A stretch of DNA of 13,881 nt from a virus (Duplodnaviria; Heunggongvirae; Uroviricota; Caudoviricetes). Of the stretch, positions 1 through 6,243 are shown piece after piece (the first letter of the stretch is position 1; every line of letters begins with the position of its first letter). Below the pieces are notes generated by a model. It was given only the letters and a program-made list of their open reading frames with translations, searched no databases and was not told the DNA's origin. The stretch lies in the IMG/VR virus record IMGVR_UViG_2751185959_000007; one strand, 5' to 3'. The position numbers were made by a program, and so were the translations under genes.

Positions 1-93
1 GAGTTCGGGGTCGAGGTAATCCCCCAGAGAAGTCAGTGGGTTACGCAGAGAATCGTAACGGGATACCAGATCAAGAGCCTGTCCAATGTGCAT
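1..93 (-). CDS. Partial ORF, only the first 31 codons visible (MHIGQALDLVSRYDSLRNPLTSLGDYLDPEL...), product unknown
   Basis: ATG at 93..91 on minus strand, open to window edge; no Shine-Dalgarno; the + strand frame 1..174 is also open, so strand and reality are uncertain. Confidence 0.25.
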   Translation of the reverse strand, partial: MHIGQALDLVSRYDSLRNPLTSLGDYLDPEL

Positions 94-96
94 AAA

Positions 97-130
97 AGAA
101 TCCGGAAACAAGTGAGCGTTTCCGGATTCT
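97..130. repeat. Perfect inverted repeat with 13-bp arms (AGAATCCGGAAAC / GTTTCCGGATTCT) and 8-nt loop; on the minus strand it is followed by TTTT and then the ATG at 93
   Basis: Direct base-by-base complementarity of 97..109 with 118..130. Confidence 0.6.
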
Positions 131-696
131 TACACAGCCACTGGATCGGTCAACTGATCCTTAACTGATCGGCATTACCCCGAAATGGAGCCGCCTTTCT
201 GAACAGATAACCCGCTGCGCCGTTTGTGTGTGTGATCCCAAACATAAGCACGGGGATGATAGCCGCTATCAGGCTGGTGGGCAATGCAATCAGTCTGGTT
301 CAGTGCGTTGCCATAACTGCGAAGTTCTCTCCTTTGATGAGTATTCTTTAAGGTACTTCTCAAGGGCAAAAGAACACGGCGCGAATCGTTCTGATTCATG
401 CTCTTTCTTTCTGCGTCGTCTTTTTCGTGCAGGTGATGTTTTTTCGGTTGATTCTTCGTTGGTCATTGTGTGCGCCTGTAAAGCAATGCGCCGTAGTACC
501 TCACACCACGGCGCTGATAGTTTTTATCCTTTGGGTTCTATGCCGCGTTGCTGTAATTCTTTGCGGATTATTCGCTTTATCCAGGCAGCAAGAGAATCAT
601 CGCCGTCCTGTTGTTGTGCCTTTTCCATCTTTTCCCGTAAGTCAGGATCTAAACGGAACTGGAACGGAGGATTACCACGCCTTTCGTTTTTGTGTG

Positions 697-1697: not shown

Positions 1698-1997
1698 ATG
1701 AAACTTAAATATTCTGGCTTAACTGCCAGTGGCAACACTCACCCTAAATTTACGCGCGGTGATATTTACCGCGACCAGTACGGCGGCATGGTAACGATTA
1801 AAGGCGTGGCAGAACGGCGCATCACCTACCGCCGTGAAGGTTACGAATATGATTGCGTGATGCCTGTTTATCAATTCCGGCGTGATTTCACGCTGGTACA
1901 GGCAGCGCCCCGCAGTAAACCAACCAGCAGGGAGAAAGCACGCGCCAATATTCAGGAAATAAAAAAGATGCTTAACGTATTCAGGGGTAAAAAATGA
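1698..1997 (+). CDS. Hypothetical protein (99 aa) immediately upstream of, and translationally coupled to, the primase gene
   Basis: SD GGAGAA at 1684..1689; stop TGA overlaps primase ATG (ATGA at 1994..1997). Confidence 0.6.
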   Translation: MKLKYSGLTASGNTHPKFTRGDIYRDQYGGMVTIKGVAERRITYRREGYEYDCVMPVYQFRRDFTLVQAAPRSKPTSREKARANIQEIKKMLNVFRGKK

Positions 1998-3742
1998 AAC
2001 TGGCACCGAACGTAAAAAAACAGCCACGCGGAATAAAACACAAAGACACAGAGGTAATTATCTTTGCGGGTAGTGATGCCTGGTCGCACGCGAAACAATG
2101 GCAGGAGCAGGATGGCCCCGCATCCGGCGATAATGTGCCGCCTGTGTGGCTTGGGCCAAATCAGCTTGCCGAACTTGATGCACTGAAAATTGTTCCGGAT
2201 GGAAAAAAACGCGTAAGGCTGTACCAGGCCGGAGAACTGGATTTGGTGGAGACCAAAAAGATTGGTCAGAAGCTGGCGGCGGCAGATATTCAGGACGCAA
2301 ATTTTTACCCCGAAGGAATGCACGTCCAGAAGTGTGAAAACTGGCGGCGCTATCTGAATGCTGAGCGTGAAAATATTGCCGCAGGGCTTACCATGCCGGA
2401 GCAGAAAAATACGCAACTGGCACAAATGGCAGACAGTGAGCGCGCGCAGCTGCTTGCCGAGCGCTTTGATGGCGTTTGTGTGCATCAGGAAAGTGAAATC
2501 GTTCACGTATGGCGCGGCGGGGTATGGTGTCCGGTCAGCACAATGGAACTTAGCCGCGAAATGGTGGTGATCTATTCAGAGCACAGGGCCACTTTCAGCA
2601 AGCGCGTAATCAATAACGCCGTGGAAGCGTTAAAAGTTATTGCCGAACCAATGGGCGAGCCGTCCGGCGATTTGCTGCCGTTCGCCAATGGTGCGCTTGA
2701 CCTGAAAACGGGGGAATTTTCCCCGCACACGCCGGAGAACTGGATCACCACGCACAACGGCATTGAGTACACGCCACCAGCACCAGGGGAGAACATCCGC
2801 GATAACGCGCTAAACTTTCATAAATGGCTTGAGCACGCAGCCGGAAAAGACCAGCGCAAGATGATGCGTATATGTGCCGCGCTGTACATGATTATGGCGA
2901 ACCGGTACGACTGGCAGATGTTTATTGAGGCCACCGGAGACGGCGGGAGCGGTAAAAGTACATTCACACACATAGCCAGCCTTCTGGCAGGGAAACAGAA
3001 CACGGTAAGCGCTGAAATGACATCGCTTGATGATGCTGGTGGACGTGCGCAGGTTGTCGGGAGTCGTCTTATCGTCCTGGCTGACCAGCCGAAATATACA
3101 GGCGAAGGAACGGGCATCAAGAAAATCACGGGCGGTGACCCCGTGGAAATTAACCCGAAATACGAAAAGCGTTTCACGGCTGTAATCAGGGCGGTGGTGC
3201 TGGCGACCAACAATAACCCGATGATATTCACCGAACGGGCCGGAGGTGTGGCACGTCGTCGCGTGATTTTCCGTTTCGACAATATCGTTAGTGAGGCCGA
3301 AAAAGACAGGGAGCTACCGGAAAAGATTGCGGCTGAAATCCCTGTCATTATCCGCCGATTGCTGGCGAACTTTACCGACTCTGAGAAAGCACGGGCTTTA
3401 CTACTGGAACAGCGTGACGGTGATGAAGCTCTGGCAATAAAGCAACAGACGGATCCGGTTATTGAGTTTTGCCAGTTCCTGAATTTTCTGGAGGAAGCAC
3501 GCGGCCTGATGATGGGCGGCGGTGGCGATTCAGTGAAGTACACGACCAGAAACAGCCTTTACCGCGTCTATCTGGCGTTTATGGCGTACGCAGGCAGGAG
3601 CAAACCGCTAAACGTAAATGACTTTGGCAAGGCTATGAAGCCAGCCGCGAAAGTTTACGGACATGAATATATTACGCGGAAAGTTAAGGGAGTAACGCAG
3701 ACTAACGCAATAACAACAGACGAGTGCGACGCGTTTTTATAA
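1994..3742 (+). CDS. Replication protein: P4-alpha-family primase/helicase (D5_N / SF3 helicase-type NTPase), 582 aa
   Basis: Long ORF with Walker A motif GDGGSGKST and downstream hydrophobic-D Walker B-like LIVLAD; overall resemblance to phage/plasmid primase P4-family C-terminal region; iteron array directly downstream. No canonical zinc-finger/TOPRIM primase motif recognised in the N-terminal 300 aa. Confidence 0.88.
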   Translation: MKLAPNVKKQPRGIKHKDTEVIIFAGSDAWSHAKQWQEQDGPASGDNVPPVWLGPNQLAELDALKIVPDGKKRVRLYQAGELDLVETKKIGQKLAAADIQDANFYPEGMHVQKCENWRRYLNAERENIAAGLTMPEQKNTQLAQMADSERAQLLAERFDGVCVHQESEIVHVWRGGVWCPVSTMELSREMVVIYSEHRATFSKRVINNAVEALKVIAEPMGEPSGDLLPFANGALDLKTGEFSPHTPENWITTHNGIEYTPPAPGENIRDNALNFHKWLEHAAGKDQRKMMRICAALYMIMANRYDWQMFIEATGDGGSGKSTFTHIASLLAGKQNTVSAEMTSLDDAGGRAQVVGSRLIVLADQPKYTGEGTGIKKITGGDPVEINPKYEKRFTAVIRAVVLATNNNPMIFTERAGGVARRRVIFRFDNIVSEAEKDRELPEKIAAEIPVIIRRLLANFTDSEKARALLLEQRDGDEALAIKQQTDPVIEFCQFLNFLEEARGLMMGGGGDSVKYTTRNSLYRVYLAFMAYAGRSKPLNVNDFGKAMKPAAKVYGHEYITRKVKGVTQTNAITTDECDAFL

Positions 3743-3756
3743 TTTTTTGTAATTGC

Positions 3757-3981
3757 TGTCTACCCTGTCTACCTGAGTAAAGAAAAATACATTTAATTCA
3801 GTGCATTAAGTTAGGTAGATAGCCTTTTTTTACTGTCTACCCACTATCTACCCTCTCTACCTGATTTTACCTGAATCAGACAGGGAGGTAGACACGGGGT
3901 AGATAGTGGATAAAAGCACTCTACCCCGCTGAAAGCAGCGCCATTACTGGCATGAGGGCCACTAAGGTAGATAAGGTAGAC
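3757..3981. repeat. Iteron array, probable origin of replication: at least 11 copies of the core TCTACC (extended (C)TGTCTACC / CTATCTACC), forward at 3757, 3766, 3834, 3846, 3856, 3920 and reverse (GGTAGA) at 3814, 3887, 3898, 3966, 3975
   Basis: Counted directly in sequence; forward copies cluster on the left, reverse copies on the right, with an AT-rich stretch (3775..3812) between; located immediately 3' of the replication gene as in SaPI and P4 replicons. Confidence 0.8.
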
Positions 3982-4030
3982 AAGGGGAGGCACAACTCAA
4001 AACTTTTTAAACGAGGGGGTAAAAATAAAT

Positions 4031-4309
4031 ATGCACACTTCAGGGAAATTTAATAAATCATTCAAAAAACGCAGAGACAGAACAGAACCGAAATATCGCG
4101 CGTTAGACATGACAGAGCACGCTTTAAAGGTGGCAATCAGAACGATAGACCGCCACGCGGGGGAAGGATACGCGAAAGCACATCCCGAACTGATAAGCGC
4201 ATTCATGACCACGACGGCGGCAAATTTTGCCACGCTGACAGAGCGGGAGATTGCCGAAGCGGAACAGGTAACAACAATCAACGTTAAAACCGGAGAGGTG
4301 GAATCATGA
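4031..4309 (+). CDS. Hypothetical protein (92 aa), first gene of a three-gene accessory operon
   Basis: Track ORF; GAGGGGG upstream of the ATG; stop overlaps next start (ATGA). Confidence 0.55.
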   Translation: MHTSGKFNKSFKKRRDRTEPKYRALDMTEHALKVAIRTIDRHAGEGYAKAHPELISAFMTTTAANFATLTEREIAEAEQVTTINVKTGEVES

Positions 4310-4611: not shown

Positions 4612-4620
4612 GGTGGCAAT

Positions 4621-4782
4621 ATGACAGCACAAATTGCAGCTTACGGGCAGCTGGTGGGCGACCCGCTGGTAAAACAGAGCAGCAAGGGCACACCGGAGCC
4701 GCCAACGGAGAACTACGCAGACCTGAGAAATGCAGTAAATCGCACTTACGCAGACATGGGGCTGAGCAAATTAGCAGAGTAG
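4621..4782 (+). CDS. Hypothetical small protein (53 aa)
   Basis: ATG 4621 with SD GAGGTGG at 4610..4616; followed by a strong intrinsic terminator. Confidence 0.45.
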   Translation: MTAQIAAYGQLVGDPLVKQSSKGTPEPPTENYADLRNAVNRTYADMGLSKLAE

Positions 4783-4804
4783 GAATATCAGAACCACACC
4801 ACGC

Positions 4805-4830
4805 AGCCGGAGCAATCCGGCTTTTTGTTA
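4805..4830 (+). terminator. Rho-independent terminator: 7-bp stem AGCCGGA / TCCGGCT with GCAA tetraloop, then T-tract
   Basis: Stem 4805..4811 / 4816..4822, loop 4812..4815, T-run 4822..4826 then GTTATTTTTT. Confidence 0.7.
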
Positions 4831-4871
4831 TTTTTTGTAAATTATTTGTTCGTGGTTGTTCCACGTTGTTC
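4826..4871. repeat. Helically phased direct repeats: TGTTA, TGTAA, TGTTC, TGTTC, TGTTC starting at 4826, 4836, 4847, 4857, 4867 (10 to 11 bp period); last unit reads TGTTCAC
   Basis: Counted in sequence; candidate protein-binding array (terminase, replication or regulator). Confidence 0.5.
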
Positions 4872-4947
4872 ACTGAGCGGATCGGCATATTTTACCCGAA
4901 CTGAATCATGATTATTCTCGCCCGTGGTGCCAGGACGCTGGGGCCAC

Positions 4948-5085: not shown

Positions 5086-6243
5086 ATGCAGAGAATAATC
5101 GAATTACGCCAGCAGAAAACCGCCATTAAAAATCAGATGCGCGACATGCTGGAGAACGCTGAAAAAGAAAACCGCAGTCTTAACGATGCTGAGGGCGCAA
5201 AATTTGACGAATTACGCGCTAAAGCTGAATCCCTCGATAAAGACATTTCCCGCCTTGAAGCCATTGCAGACGAAGAGCGCAGCAAGCCAGGTAAAAGCAG
5301 CCAGACCACTGACCCCGCAGAACTACGTAACTACATTCTGACCGGTGAAACCCGCGCATTAAGTACAGGCGTTCCCGCTGATGGTGGTTATACCGTTATC
5401 CCTGAACTGAACACCGAAATCATGCGAATGCTGGCGGATGAATCCACCATGCGTCGCATCTGTACCGTGAAGAAAATCAGCAGCAACGAGTTTAAGCAGC
5501 TTGTTTCCGCTGGCGGTGCGACCGTTAACCACGGTGAAGAGGGTAAGGCACGCGAACAGACCAGCACCCCGCAGATTAACGAGGTGAGCATTAAGCTGTA
5601 TCCGGTCTATGCGTACCCGCGCACCACACAGGAAATCGTGGATTTTTCCGATGTGGACATCCTTTCATGGCTGACGGGTGAGATTGGCGACACCTTCACG
5701 GAAACCGAAGAAAGCGATCTGGTTGTGGGCGACGGTGACAAAAAAGCAAAAGGTTTTTTATCCGTACCCCGTGCAGAGAAGAACGACAAAGAGCGTGATT
5801 TTGGTACGTTGCAGGTAATTAAACCTTCCGAATCTCTGGCGTGGACATCTGCGGACCCGCTGATCGACCTGAAATTTGCATTACGTAAAAAATACCGCAA
5901 AAACGCGGTCTGAGTGGTTAACTCCACGACGGCGGCAAAACTTCAGAAGGTGAAGAACGCGAACGGTGATTATATCTGGCGCGACCGTTTACAGGCGGGT
6001 GATCCTGATACGTTGCTGGGCCTTCCGGTCGAATATCTGGAGTTTATGCCTGATAACGTTATTGCCCTGGGTGACTTCAAACGCGGTTACTACATTGTTG
6101 ATCACGAAACAGGTGTTCGCACCAGACCGGACAACCTGACAGAACCAGGATTCATCAAAATTTTCACGCAAAAATATTTAGGCGGTGGCGTGGTGGATTC
6201 GAACGCGATCAAGATTCTGGCACTGCCGGAAGACGACGATTAA
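5086..6243 (+). pseudogene. HK97-family major capsid protein interrupted by an in-frame TGA at 5911..5913 (N-terminal 275 codons 5086..5910; C-terminal 109 codons 5914..6243; 385 residues if the stop is read through)
   Basis: Track ORFs 5038..5913 and 5914..6243 are in the same frame, separated only by TGA. N-terminus MQRIIELRQQ... is a coiled-coil delta-domain-like region. Context NAV-TGA-VVNSTT is consistent with an ancestral TGG (Trp) codon. Confidence 0.85.

What the first reader, a model, noticed from the sequence alone, without database searches (positions are those of the whole stretch)
3757..3981. Iteron array immediately downstream of the replication gene (candidate origin)
At least 11 copies of the TCTACC core sit in about 225 bp. 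Forward copies are mostly on the left and reverse copies on the right, with an AT-rich stretch (3775..3812) between the first iteron pair and the rest. Tandem copies are spaced 9 to 11 bp apart. The motif differs from the P4 iteron TGTTCACC as I recall it, so the initiator's DNA specificity may be distinct.
Basis: partly seen in the sequence, partly recalled or inferred. Interest (0 to 1): 0.55.

Follow-up and report, generated by a model that had tools for sequence, protein, structure and literature searches.

The report
Known satellite-island replication origin (iterons)
The repeat cluster is real and is the replication origin of a phage-satellite island (PICI); an almost identical copy in E. 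coli CFT073 was shown in 2018 to support replication, so it is a correct but ordinary finding.

Summary
Observation confirmed. 11 of the window's 12 TCTACC copies lie in 3759..3980, against about 0.11 expected. They are spaced 9-11 bp apart, and a 24%-GC stretch (3775..3812) follows the first pair.

Interpretation supported, and already known. The window is a capsid-forming PICI from Shigella/E. coli, inserted between roxA and phoQ. Its intergenic region 3743..4030 is 95% identical to the region 3' of pri-rep in EcCICFT073, with all 11 cores kept. The published primers show that this intergenic DNA is what was cloned as "ori" and deleted as "delta-ori" in Fillol-Salom et al. 2018 (PMC6092414). 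Rep plus this DNA maintained a temperature-sensitive plasmid at 44 C.

New supporting evidence:
- The cores are footprinted across nine diverged alleles: 54/66 core columns are invariant against 69/222 others.
- The array layout recurs in five other genera.
- Iteron class tracks the Rep C-terminal winged-helix domain, a homologue of the P4 alpha origin-binding domain, better than it tracks the helicase core.
The commonest 8-mer here, TGTCTACC, differs from it at two positions.

Still unexplained: a conserved non-iteron block (3929..3956), and a "primase" that lacks a primase domain. Interest is low.

The parts
1994..3742 (+). Rep initiator-helicase, annotated 'DNA primase family protein'. Domains: D5_N (151-280), SF3 P-loop/DUF5906 (314-415), Pox_D5 C-terminal winged-helix domain (485-574). 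Residues 1-140 are unassigned.
   Evidence: Pfam. PDB hits 7ola (SaPI5 PriRep5 helicase, E 6.5e-16) and 1ka8 (P4 alpha origin-binding domain, E 7e-7). No Zn-ribbon or Toprim primase domain, unlike P4 alpha. 100% identical to Shigella flexneri proteins.
3733..3758 (.). T-rich, low-stability DNA spanning the rep stop codon, on the left of the first iteron pair.
   Evidence: The 30-mer starting at 3733 is among the 15 least stable in the whole window: -31.7 kcal/mol, against a mean of -41.7 and sd of 3.3.
3756..3774 (+). Iterons 1-2, a forward tandem pair 9 bp apart (cores 3759..3764 and 3768..3773). Sequence: CTGTCTACCCTGTCTACCT.
   Evidence: Invariant position (offsets 17 and 26 from the rep stop) in all nine E. 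coli/Shigella alleles and near-constant in other genera. Forms an 86% inverted repeat with 3961..3982. P4 crr has the same 9-bp-spaced pair, TGTTCACACTGTTCACC.
3775..3812 (.). AT-rich spacer, 24% GC. Inferred DNA-unwinding (melting) region between convergent iterons.
   Evidence: GC 0.237. 30-mers at 3770..3809 score -31.8 to -32.3 kcal/mol, about 3 sd below the window mean. An AT-rich block occupies the same place in most TCTACC-class relatives. Melting here is inferred from the SaPI model (PMC9371898) and has not been shown.
3814..3819 (-). Iteron 3, reverse, closing the AT-rich spacer.
   Evidence: Conserved at offset ~70-72 in the alleles (or ~82 in L006; a second copy at 82 in L004, L007, L008) and in distant loci.
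3836..3871 (+). Iterons 4-6, forward (cores at 3836, 3847, 3856), plus a degenerate fourth copy, TTTACC, at 3866.
   Evidence: Spacings of 11, 9 and 10 bp. All lie on one helical face. L017, L081 and L082 carry an exact fourth copy nearby.
3887..3903 (-). Iterons 7-8, reverse (cores at 3887 and 3898). With iterons 4-6 they form an imperfect palindrome.
   Evidence: I4: 3838-3853 / 3897-3912, 94% complementary. As single-stranded DNA, 3800..3940 folds with z = -5.7. The sub-threshold Rfam miRNA-hairpin hits are an artefact of this symmetry.
3920..3925 (+). Iteron 9, a lone forward copy.
   Evidence: Conserved at offset ~177-179 in all alleles and present in distant loci.
3929..3956 (.). Conserved non-iteron block CTGAAAGCAGCGCCATTACTGGCATGA. 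Function unknown; possibly a second cis element of the origin.
   Evidence: Nearly invariant across nine alleles whose flanking spacers have diverged. Recognisable with 4-6 mismatches in Raoultella, Symbiopectobacterium and the CCCTACC-class loci. The ~40-bp spacer length and a CTNAAAGCC element are kept in most genera compared, though not in Tolumonas L031.
3966..3980 (-). Iterons 10-11, a reverse tandem pair 9 bp apart; the mirror image of iterons 1-2.
   Evidence: I2. Conserved at offsets ~222-234 in eight of the nine alleles; in L008 only the second core of the pair is exact.
3999..4030 (+). Conserved leader AAAACTTTTTAAACGAGGGGGTAAAAATAAAT, containing the ribosome-binding site of the next gene. 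It lies inside the published 'ori' fragment, but its role in replication is not known.
   Evidence: Nearly invariant in the nine-allele alignment. GAGGGGG lies 9-15 nt upstream of the ATG at 4031.
4031..4309 (+). First gene downstream (92 aa, PHROG 1231, unknown function). Not part of the minimal replicon.
   Evidence: The published pri-ori clone ends about 22 nt into the homologous ORF, so its product is not needed for plasmid maintenance.

Best explanation
Window 3743..~3996 is the vegetative replication origin of a phage-inducible chromosomal island (PICI). It is of the type first defined in EcCICFT073, here attached to a capsid-forming (cf-PICI) packaging module.

Proposed mechanism:
1. 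After induction by a helper phage, the island expresses Rep (1994..3742). Rep is an SF3 self-loading helicase with a C-terminal winged-helix domain.
2. That domain recognises the ~6-10-bp iterons (core TCTACC). There are 11-12 of them, in tandem pairs or triplets spaced about one helical turn apart and arranged as converging sets.
3. Binding of several Rep protomers on both sides of the easily melted AT-rich stretch (3775..3812) opens the duplex. Rep hexamers then assemble on the opened DNA and unwind it.
4. Priming and synthesis are done by host enzymes, because this Rep has no recognisable primase domain.

What is shown and what is inferred:
- Shown in the literature, on a 95%-identical allele: Rep plus this intergenic DNA are sufficient for plasmid maintenance, and each is needed.
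- Shown here: the repeats are non-random, are the most conserved part of the region, travel with rep, and change with the Rep C-terminal domain.
- Inferred: that Rep's winged helix contacts TCTACC directly, that melting occurs at 3775..3812, and that two hexamers load.
For: 1. Identity with a tested origin. CFT073 carries the same intergenic region at 95% identity with all 11 cores. The published primers place the 'ori' fragment at the homologue of window ~3746..4053. The paper reports rep-ori-dependent maintenance of ts pKO3-blue at 44 C, no colonies with delta-rep, and significantly fewer with delta-ori.

2. Non-randomness. 11 copies against ~0.11 expected.

3. Footprinting. In nine alleles down to ~72% identity, 54/66 core columns are invariant against 69/222 non-core columns (Fisher p = 3e-13). 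Copy positions and orientations are kept.

4. Deep conservation of layout. The same order >> [AT] < >>> << > [~40 bp] << occurs in Rosenbergiella, Xenorhabdus, Symbiopectobacterium, Tolumonas and Raoultella.

5. The initiator. SF3 helicase homologous to the SaPI PriRep5 self-loading helicase (7ola, E 6.5e-16). Its C-terminal domain is homologous to the P4 alpha origin-binding winged helix (1ka8, E 7e-7).

6. Covariation. Among 42 replicons with arrays, iteron class agrees better with C-terminal-domain clusters (AMI 0.63) than with helicase-core clusters (AMI <= 0.40). There is also a double dissociation: L012, L013 and L015 have a 70-71% core but a 32-33% C-terminus and carry other iterons, while L081 and L082 have a 52% core but a 51% C-terminus and carry TCTACC.

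7. Linkage to rep rather than to packaging. The same array follows rep in islands with four different packaging modules.

8. Physical features. The lowest duplex stability flanks iterons 1-2, and the eight central iterons share one helical face.
Against: - No experiment exists on this exact allele or in Shigella.
- The published delta-ori plasmid gave reduced colony numbers rather than none. Residual maintenance, or a contribution from other DNA, is therefore not excluded.
- I found no report of direct Rep binding to TCTACC.
- The covariation is confounded by shared ancestry and has exceptions. L026 and L080 combine a P4-like C-terminus with TGTCTACC iterons. L012 and L013 have nearly identical C-termini but different iterons.
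- The AT-rich block is off-centre (2 iterons to its left, 9 to its right), unlike the roughly central AT region described for SaPI origins. The melting site is therefore a guess.
- This copy of the island appears to be decaying: there is a stop codon in the capsid gene and an IS4 fragment at the left end. The origin may no longer be used in this host.
Confidence: 0.9

Rival explanations
1. The array is a cis-acting replication enhancer like P4's crr, not the initiation site itself. Rep binds here, but DNA synthesis starts at a separate origin elsewhere in the island.
For: The array occupies exactly the position of P4 crr, directly 3' of the helicase gene. It has the same 9-bp-spaced tandem pair and convergent iterons around an AT-rich spacer. 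The Rep C-terminal domain is homologous to that of P4 alpha.
Against: There is only one TCTACC cluster in the window and in the two intact islands examined, L001 and CFT073. The published minimal construct contains rep plus this region only, and it replicates.
Confidence: 0.04
2. The repeats are mainly a transcriptional operator. Rep or another island protein would bind them to control the downstream operon or rep itself, as with iteron-mediated autoregulation or handcuffing in plasmids.
For: The array lies between rep and the next gene, and a conserved leader follows it. Iteron origins of plasmids commonly double as regulatory sites (general knowledge).
Against: No sigma-70-like promoter was found on the forward strand and no terminator in 3500..4300. 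Gram-negative PICIs are described as transcribed unidirectionally from upstream. Deleting the region impairs replication in a construct where rep is driven by an arabinose promoter. An additional regulatory role is not excluded.
Confidence: 0.03
3. The array is the packaging recognition site (cos/pac, TerS binding repeats) of the island's own HK97-type terminase.
For: This island encodes HNH, TerS and TerL. Small terminases often bind short repeated sites.
Against: The same array is present in EcCICFT073, which has no TerS and whose cos sites were assayed and deleted separately from the ori constructs. It also follows rep in islands with unrelated packaging modules. In every locus it sits at a fixed offset from the rep stop codon, about 5.4 kb upstream of terS in this window.
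Confidence: 0.01
4. The cluster is a chance or low-complexity feature with no function.
For: None beyond the shortness of the 6-bp core.
Against: Poisson P is about 7e-19 and 0 of 200 shuffles reach the count. Positions and orientations are conserved across alleles and genera.
Confidence: 0.005

Closest known systems
EcCICFT073 pri-rep-ori replicon (Gram-negative PICI origin; Fillol-Salom et al. 2018, ISME J, PMC6092414)
   Same: Same chromosomal attachment site (roxA/phoQ). Same gene order: DUF4222, rep, array, small ORF. Intergenic region 95% identical, with all 11 TCTACC cores at the same offsets. Rep C-terminal domain 99% identical. [quoted passage not shown]
   Different: The Rep N-terminal 140 residues are only 68% identical. 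The packaging module differs: EcCICFT073 has no terminase or portal and uses helper cos sites, whereas this island has a full HK97-type capsid/portal/HNH/TerS/TerL set, i.e. it is a cf-PICI. This copy carries a capsid nonsense codon.
SaPI origins and Rep self-loading helicases (Staphylococcus aureus pathogenicity islands; summarised in PMC9371898)
   Same: Same logic: 6-12 short (5-6 nt) iterons immediately downstream of rep, an AT-rich region between oppositely oriented sets, and an SF3 helicase whose C-terminal winged helix reads the iterons. The helicase core is detectably homologous (7ola, E 6.5e-16).
   Different: No DNA sequence similarity. The AT-rich region here is off-centre (2 iterons on one side, 9 on the other). 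The iteron set forms a nested palindromic pattern. An extra conserved non-iteron block is present.
Satellite phage P4 crr/ori and alpha protein
   Same: crr lies directly 3' of the helicase-initiator gene. The iterons are 8 bp (TGTTCACC) against TGTCTACC here, with 6 of 8 positions identical. Both have a tandem pair spaced 9 bp and convergent iterons around an AT-rich spacer. The D5_N, SF3 and winged-helix domains are homologous, with the 1ka8 hit covering Rep residues 486-577.
   Different: P4 needs two clusters (ori and crr) about 4.5 kb apart, while this island has one. P4 alpha carries a Zn-ribbon and Toprim primase, and this Rep does not. The P4 core TTCACC is absent from the array. C-terminal domain identity is only ~31%.
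Iteron-type theta plasmid origins (e.g. pSC101, R6K, RK2, P1)
   Same: Repeated initiator-binding sites next to an AT-rich unwinding element.
   Different: Those iterons are typically 17-22 bp and are bound by dimeric or monomeric RepA-family winged-helix proteins that recruit host DnaA, DnaB and DnaC (general knowledge). Here the repeats are 6-10 bp and the initiator is itself the helicase. The single DnaA-box-like site (3906..3914) is not conserved.

Membership tests
Gram-negative PICI origin (EcCICFT073 type) | Lies immediately 3' of the replication initiator gene | tested here: met
   The first core starts 17 bp after the rep stop codon. The offset is the same in all nine alleles.
Gram-negative PICI origin (EcCICFT073 type) | [quoted passage not shown] | tested here: met
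   Forward pair at 3759/3768, then 24%-GC DNA at 3775..3812, then a reverse iteron at 3814 followed by eight more.
Gram-negative PICI origin (EcCICFT073 type) | Sequence homology to the experimentally defined ori fragment | tested here: met
   95% identity over 288 bp to CFT073, with all cores conserved. The fragment was delimited by mapping the published primers.
Gram-negative PICI origin (EcCICFT073 type) | Supports Rep-dependent autonomous replication | not testable with these tools
   Shown for the CFT073 allele in PMC6092414. Not tested for this allele.
Gram-negative PICI origin (EcCICFT073 type) | Island context: integrase, AlpA-type regulator, unidirectional genes, PICI-specific attachment site, no lysis or tail genes | tested here: inconclusive
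   The right junction at phoQ and the gene order match. The window begins in an IS4 fragment, so int and alpA are not visible. The collinear intact relative L001 has both.
Capsid-forming PICI (cf-PICI) | Own capsid, protease, portal, adaptor/closure, HNH, TerS and TerL genes, without tail or lysis genes, in a 10-18 kb island | tested here: met
   Pfam and PHROG hits for all of these. 98% identical to the module in L001. The capsid gene here has one in-frame stop.
P4-type ori/crr | Type 1 iteron TGTTCACC | tested here: not met
   No TTCACC in 3700..4060. P4 has 11 exact TGTTCACC copies and no TCTACC.
P4-type ori/crr | Two separated iteron clusters (ori and crr), both required | tested here: not met
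   A single cluster in the window and in the intact islands L001 and L002.
P4-type ori/crr | Initiator with DnaG-type primase, SF3 helicase and C-terminal winged helix in one polypeptide | tested here: not met
   The helicase and winged helix are present. The Zn-ribbon and Toprim domains are absent.
SaPI-type origin | 6-12 penta/hexanucleotide iterons downstream of rep, with at least two on each side of an AT-rich region pointing in opposite directions | tested here: met
   11-12 hexamer cores. Two forward copies lie left of the AT-rich region and a reverse copy lies immediately to its right. The definition is taken from PMC9371898. This is an architectural match only; there is no DNA homology.
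Iteron-type theta plasmid origin | 17-22-bp iterons bound by a RepA-family initiator, with conserved DnaA boxes | tested here: not met
   The repeat unit is 6-10 bp. The initiator is an SF3 helicase. The only DnaA-like box (3906..3914, 8/9 match) is absent from the diverged alleles.

The most novel reading that the evidence does not exclude
The origin contains a second, undescribed cis element: the conserved non-iteron block at 3929..3956 and its fixed ~40-bp spacing between iteron 9 and the terminal inverted pair. This element would serve as the actual helicase-loading or priming site, or as a host-factor site. It could explain how a Rep without a primase domain gets primers.

Related idea: Rep specificity is set by a short segment just before the conserved T/S-N motif (residues ~564-573), so islands can switch origin specificity with a few substitutions or a small insertion there. 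L012 versus L013, and the insertion in L026/L080, would be examples.
Probability: 0.25. Interest if true: 0.35.

Novelty: already known. Interest (0 to 1): 0.15.

Why it matters
It matters little as a discovery. The origin type, its position and its function were published in 2018, and the architecture parallels the SaPI and P4 origins.

The practical value is in annotation. RefSeq leaves this region unannotated ('none' under every match), although it occurs in about 10% of complete E. coli genomes (564 of 5426). The gene beside it is labelled a primase although it has no primase domain.

The comparative data here give three things for anyone dissecting PICI replication, or cross-talk between co-resident islands that share an origin:
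- a precise iteron map;
- a candidate extra cis element;
- candidate specificity residues.

Tried and rejected
- Rfam scan of 3500..4300. Only sub-threshold miRNA-precursor models matched (about 22-24 bits, against gathering scores of 59-150). They were picking up the palindromic iteron arrangement. Rejected as an RNA gene.
- Promoter and terminator scan. No forward-strand sigma-70 consensus and no intrinsic terminator, so there is no support for a promoter/operator reading or for a transcription stop after rep.
- DnaA box. AGTGGATAA at 3906..3914 matches 8 of 9 positions, but it is lost in alleles L003-L008. Not treated as part of the mechanism.
- Second iteron cluster, as in P4 ori plus crr. 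None found in the window, L001 or L002, even allowing one mismatch.
- cos/pac reading. Rejected because the array follows rep regardless of the packaging module.
- The search for homologous proteins with Rep. It returned 120 near-identical Shigella/E. coli sequences, which were useless for diversity. Diversity came from the 50%-clustered search and the genome scan.
- Primer rep-2cNotI. It did not map exactly. It matches L002 9291..9311 if the printed table has dropped one C, and its 3' 11 nt match exactly. The right-hand end of the published ori fragment is therefore known to within 1 nt only.
- First translation of the capsid gene. It was out of frame because of an indel offset, and was corrected.
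- Many ~800-aa alpha-like Reps of Xenorhabdus show no strong array within 350 bp of the stop codon. Their origins may lie elsewhere. They were left out of the covariation test.
- N-terminal domain structure. I did not attempt a prediction, because no sufficiently diverse admissible alignment was available.
Full report
**1. The observation**

The hexamer TCTACC occurs 12 times in the 13,881-bp window on both strands, and 11 of these lie between 3759 and 3980. None of 200 dinucleotide-preserving shuffles of the whole window reached 12 copies. From base composition, about 0.11 copies are expected in 225 bp, giving Poisson P(>=11) of about 7e-19.

Forward copies start at 3759, 3768, 3836, 3847, 3856 and 3920. 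Reverse copies start at 3814, 3887, 3898, 3966 and 3975. Tandem spacings are 9, 11, 9, 11 and 9 bp. A degenerate twelfth copy (TTTACC, 3866) follows 3856 by 10 bp, close to where some relatives carry an exact fourth forward copy. The extended consensus is about CTRTCTACCY.

The stretch 3775..3812 is 24% GC, against 51% for the window. The outer pairs are mirror images of each other (3757-3778 against 3961-3982, 86% complementary). No ORF of 50 aa or more covers 3743..3996. Every factual statement in the finding is therefore correct.

**2. What the surroundings are**

The gene ending at 3742 encodes a 582-aa protein with D5_N, DUF5906 (the SF3 helicase P-loop) and Pox_D5 C-terminal domains. Downstream lie an HK97-type capsid gene, prohead protease, portal, head-closure and adaptor proteins, HNH endonuclease, TerS and TerL. 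There are no tail or lysis genes, and the window ends in phoQ.

The closest complete genome (NZ_CP073589, L001) shows the same island between roxA and phoQ, with an integrase and a helix-turn-helix regulator at its left end. This is the layout of a capsid-forming phage-inducible chromosomal island (cf-PICI; 10.1101/2022.09.08.507074).

The Rep protein is 100% identical to Shigella flexneri proteins seen on more than 1000 contigs, and to a Shigella flexneri chromosome locus. The window is therefore probably from Shigella.

**3. Identity with a published, tested origin**

A search with the intergenic region alone found it in 564 of 5426 complete E. coli genomes, always unannotated. One hit is strain CFT073, at 95% identity over the full 288 bp.

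The CFT073 locus (L002) is at the same roxA/phoQ site and has the same order: int, regulator, icd-like gene, DUF4222, rep. All 11 cores align without change, and the substitutions fall between or beside them.

Fillol-Salom et al. [quoted passage not shown] They tested EcCICFT073.

I mapped their primers from the supplementary table onto L002:
- The pri-ori clone (pJP2027) runs from L002 7202 to about 9311.
- The pri-delta-ori clone (pJP2028) stops at L002 9004, which corresponds to window 3745.
- The reverse primer of pJP2027 matches L002 9291..9311 once a single-base discrepancy in the printed sequence is allowed for. Its 3' 11 nt match exactly.

The DNA called 'ori' therefore corresponds to window ~3746..4053, which is the array, its conserved leader and about 22 nt of the next ORF.

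The paper reports that rep-ori allowed a thermosensitive plasmid to give colonies at 44 C. The delta-rep plasmid gave none, and the ori deletion significantly reduced them. Neither the DUF4222 gene nor the downstream ORF is in the construct.

**4. Footprinting within E. coli/Shigella**

I fetched six further alleles, chosen from across the identity range (L003-L008). An unbiased 6-mer count of each post-rep intergenic region returned GGTAGA/TCTACC as the top word in every one. There were 9-11 copies, at nearly constant offsets from the stop codon: 17, 26, ~71, ~104, 113, ~145, 156, ~178, ~224 and ~233.

In the nine-sequence alignment, 54 of 66 core columns are invariant, against 69 of 222 other columns (Fisher p = 3e-13; mean pairwise identity 0.92 against 0.65). 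The three bases 5' of the core differ by allele (CTG/CTA here, CCC in O157-type islands), so TCTACC(Y) is the constrained unit.

The array follows rep in islands with quite different downstream modules:
- SSB, PerC and a lambda-type capsid/decoration pair;
- a ClpP-capsid fusion;
- TerS plus a capsid gene;
- ProQ plus TerS.

This argues that the array belongs to the replication module and not to packaging.

**5. The initiator and its relatives**

Rep matches the cryo-EM-solved SaPI5 PriRep5 self-loading helicase (7ola, E 6.5e-16, residues 176-430). It also matches the crystal structure of the P4 alpha origin-binding winged-helix domain (1ka8, E 7e-7, residues 486-577).

For SaPI Reps, the literature states that the C-terminal winged helix recognises penta- or hexanucleotide iterons. 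Six to twelve of them lie immediately downstream of rep around an AT-rich region. No loader is needed, and origin binding and melting are ATP-independent (PMC9371898).

P4 alpha is described as a DnaG-type primase, an SF3 helicase and a winged helix in one polypeptide (PMC2777425). Pfam confirms Zn_Ribbon_Prim and Toprim in alpha but not in this Rep. The first 140 residues of this Rep match nothing in Pfam or NCBIfam.

Among the E. coli alleles, the C-terminal domain is 92-100% identical to the window's in seven of eight (81% in L005). The helicase core is 94-99% identical. The N-terminal 140 residues range from 39 to 100%.

**6. Comparison with P4**

The P4 record annotates 16 'ori type 1 repeats' with the consensus TGTTCACC, 11 of them exact.

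The commonest 8-mer in the window's array, TGTCTACC, differs from P4's only at positions 4-5. P4 crr also has a tandem pair spaced 9 bp (TGTTCACACTGTTCACC, against TGTCTACCCTGTCTACC here) and convergent iterons around an AT-rich spacer.

The differences are:
- P4 needs two clusters 4.5 kb apart. The window and the intact islands L001 and L002 have a single cluster.
- The Rep here lacks the primase domain.
- C-terminal domain identity to alpha is about 31%.

**7. Covariation across genera**

A search of the 50%-identity clustered protein library gave diverse Rep homologues. An alignment of 31 of them (A2) retrieved 80 genomic loci. In most of these loci the 350 bp after the rep stop contains a dense array, and the cores fall into discrete classes:
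- TCTACC: 16 loci besides the window, from Shigella (L010), Rosenbergiella, Xenorhabdus, Symbiopectobacterium, Tolumonas, Yersinia, Raoultella, Pantoea, Escherichia ruysiae and Kluyvera;
- CCCTAC(C);
- P4-like TGTTCACC or TGTTCAC;
- TGTTCAT;
- TGTATACC;
- two Aeromonas motifs.

Iteron class agrees better with clusters of the C-terminal domain (adjusted mutual information 0.63) than with clusters of the helicase core (0.40 or less). Pairs in the same class share 63% C-terminal identity, against 41% for pairs in different classes. For the helicase core the figures are 71% and 64%.

There is also a double dissociation. L012, L013 and L015 have cores 70-71% identical to the window's but C-termini only 32-33% identical, and they carry other iterons. 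L081 and L082 have 52% cores but 51% C-termini, and they carry TCTACC. The TCTACC class occurs with both ~600-aa Reps and ~800-aa alpha-like Reps, so N-terminal architecture is irrelevant to iteron choice.

This is suggestive rather than conclusive, because the sequences are related by descent and there are exceptions. L026 and L080 pair a P4-like C-terminus with ACTGTCTACC iterons. L012 and L013 have almost identical C-termini but TGTTCAT and TGTATACC iterons.

In both sets of exceptions, the proteins differ in one short segment just before a conserved T/S-N motif (window residues ~564-573, KVKGVTQTNAI). L026 and L080 have a 5-residue insertion there. L012 and L013 differ at four positions in the domain, two of them in this segment. 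I propose this segment as the specificity determinant. That is an inference.

**8. Architecture and likely mechanism**

The order >> [AT-rich] < >>> << > [~40-bp block] << is kept in five other genera.

Nearest-neighbour stability is lowest on both sides of the first pair. Segments 3733..3762 and 3770..3809 score about -32 kcal/mol per 30-mer, against a window mean of -41.7 with sd 3.3. The eight central iterons (3814..3920) lie within about 35 degrees either side of one helical face.

I therefore favour the SaPI-type model. Rep protomers bind the iterons through the winged helix, distort and open the adjacent AT-rich DNA, and assemble as hexameric helicases. Host enzymes prime and extend.

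Steps shown:
- sufficiency and necessity of rep plus this region (literature, near-identical allele);
- non-randomness, conservation and linkage of the repeats (this work).

Steps inferred:
- direct contact between the winged helix and TCTACC;
- the melting site;
- the stoichiometry.

**9. Rivals**

- P4-crr-like enhancer with a separate origin. Made unlikely by the single cluster and the minimal construct.
- Pure operator. No promoter or terminator consensus was found, and there is a replication phenotype under a heterologous promoter. A secondary regulatory role remains possible.
- Packaging site. Excluded by the array's presence in the TerS-less EcCICFT073 and in islands with other packaging modules.
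- RNA gene. Not supported.

**10. What remains unexplained**

The block CTGAAAGCAGCGCCATTACTGGCATGA (3929..3956) is nearly invariant among alleles whose neighbouring spacers have diverged. It is recognisable in Raoultella, Symbiopectobacterium and CCCTACC-class loci. Nothing I read describes it.

The Rep N-terminal domain is mosaic and unassigned.

The island copy in the window looks degenerate. Its capsid gene (5086..6243) has one in-frame stop at 5911..5913, and the left end is an IS4 fragment.

**11. Verdict**

The feature is the already-known EcCICFT073-type PICI origin, here in a cf-PICI of Shigella/E. coli. Interest is low (0.15). The modest new content is the detailed iteron map, the cross-genus conservation, the evidence for covariation with the C-terminal domain, and one candidate extra cis element.

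Noticed in passing
window 3929..3956: The non-iteron block CTGAAAGCAGCGCCATTACTGGCATGA is almost invariant in nine alleles whose surrounding spacers have diverged. It is recognisable (4-6 mismatches) in Raoultella, Symbiopectobacterium and CCCTACC-class origins. The ~40-bp spacer it fills has constant length across genera. Its function is unknown.
   Followed up: partly
window 1994..2413 (Rep residues 1-140): The protein annotated 'DNA primase family protein' has no Zn-ribbon or Toprim primase domain, whereas P4 alpha does. Its N-terminal 140 residues match nothing in Pfam or NCBIfam and are mosaic between alleles (39-100% identity), while the rest of the protein is 81-100% identical.
   Followed up: partly
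window 5086..6243: The major capsid gene has one in-frame stop codon at 5911..5913 when compared with the intact 385-aa homologue in L001 (14043..15200). This copy of the cf-PICI probably cannot make its own capsids.
   Followed up: partly
window 1..192: The left end of the window is an IS4 transposase fragment, 98% identical to IS4 copies in lambda-derived records. Collinearity with the intact island in L001 starts only at window 178, so the integrase/AlpA end of the island may be interrupted.
   Followed up: no
window 3906..3914: AGTGGATAA matches the DnaA-box consensus TGTGNATAA at 8 of 9 positions and overlaps the flank of iteron 8. It is present only in CFT073-type alleles and not in L003-L008. 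P4 has a perfect TGTGGATAA just beyond its crr.
   Followed up: partly
window 4612..4880: Compared with EcCICFT073, the ssb gene and most of the perC-family gene that follow the origin are missing. Only about 145 bp matching the perC region remain (4682..4826). RefSeq annotates SSB and PerC remnants as pseudogenes at the same place in L001.
   Followed up: no
L026 (Escherichia ruysiae) and L080 (Kluyvera georgiana), 350 bp after the rep stop: These replicons combine a P4-like Rep C-terminal domain (about 30% identical to the window's) with ACTGTCTACC iterons. They carry a 5-residue insertion in the segment before the conserved T/S-N motif. This may be an example of a specificity switch.
   Followed up: partly
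L012 (Escherichia sp. ESNIH1) versus L013 (Pseudocitrobacter faecalis): The Rep C-terminal domains are nearly identical (four differences, including KTRG-VVTN against KNRG-MVTN), but the iterons differ: GGTGTTCAT against GTGTATACC. This is a natural pair for mapping specificity residues.
   Followed up: no
L036-L070 (mostly Xenorhabdus/Photorhabdus, ~800-aa alpha-like Reps): No strong iteron array lies within 350 bp of the rep stop; there are only 3-5 copies of TACATC/TGTATA. Their origins may lie elsewhere, as P4's ori does.
   Followed up: no
window 1994..1997: The DUF4222 gene (1698..1997) overlaps the rep start by 4 nt (ATGA), which suggests translational coupling. DUF4222 precedes rep in every allele examined, but it is not in the published minimal replicon.
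   Followed up: no
E. coli genome collection: Some genomes carry up to 4 copies of this origin region (up to 5 matches with the longer rep/ori probe), i.e. several islands with the same iterons and nearly the same Rep DNA-binding domain. This raises the possibility of cross-activation or incompatibility.
   Followed up: no
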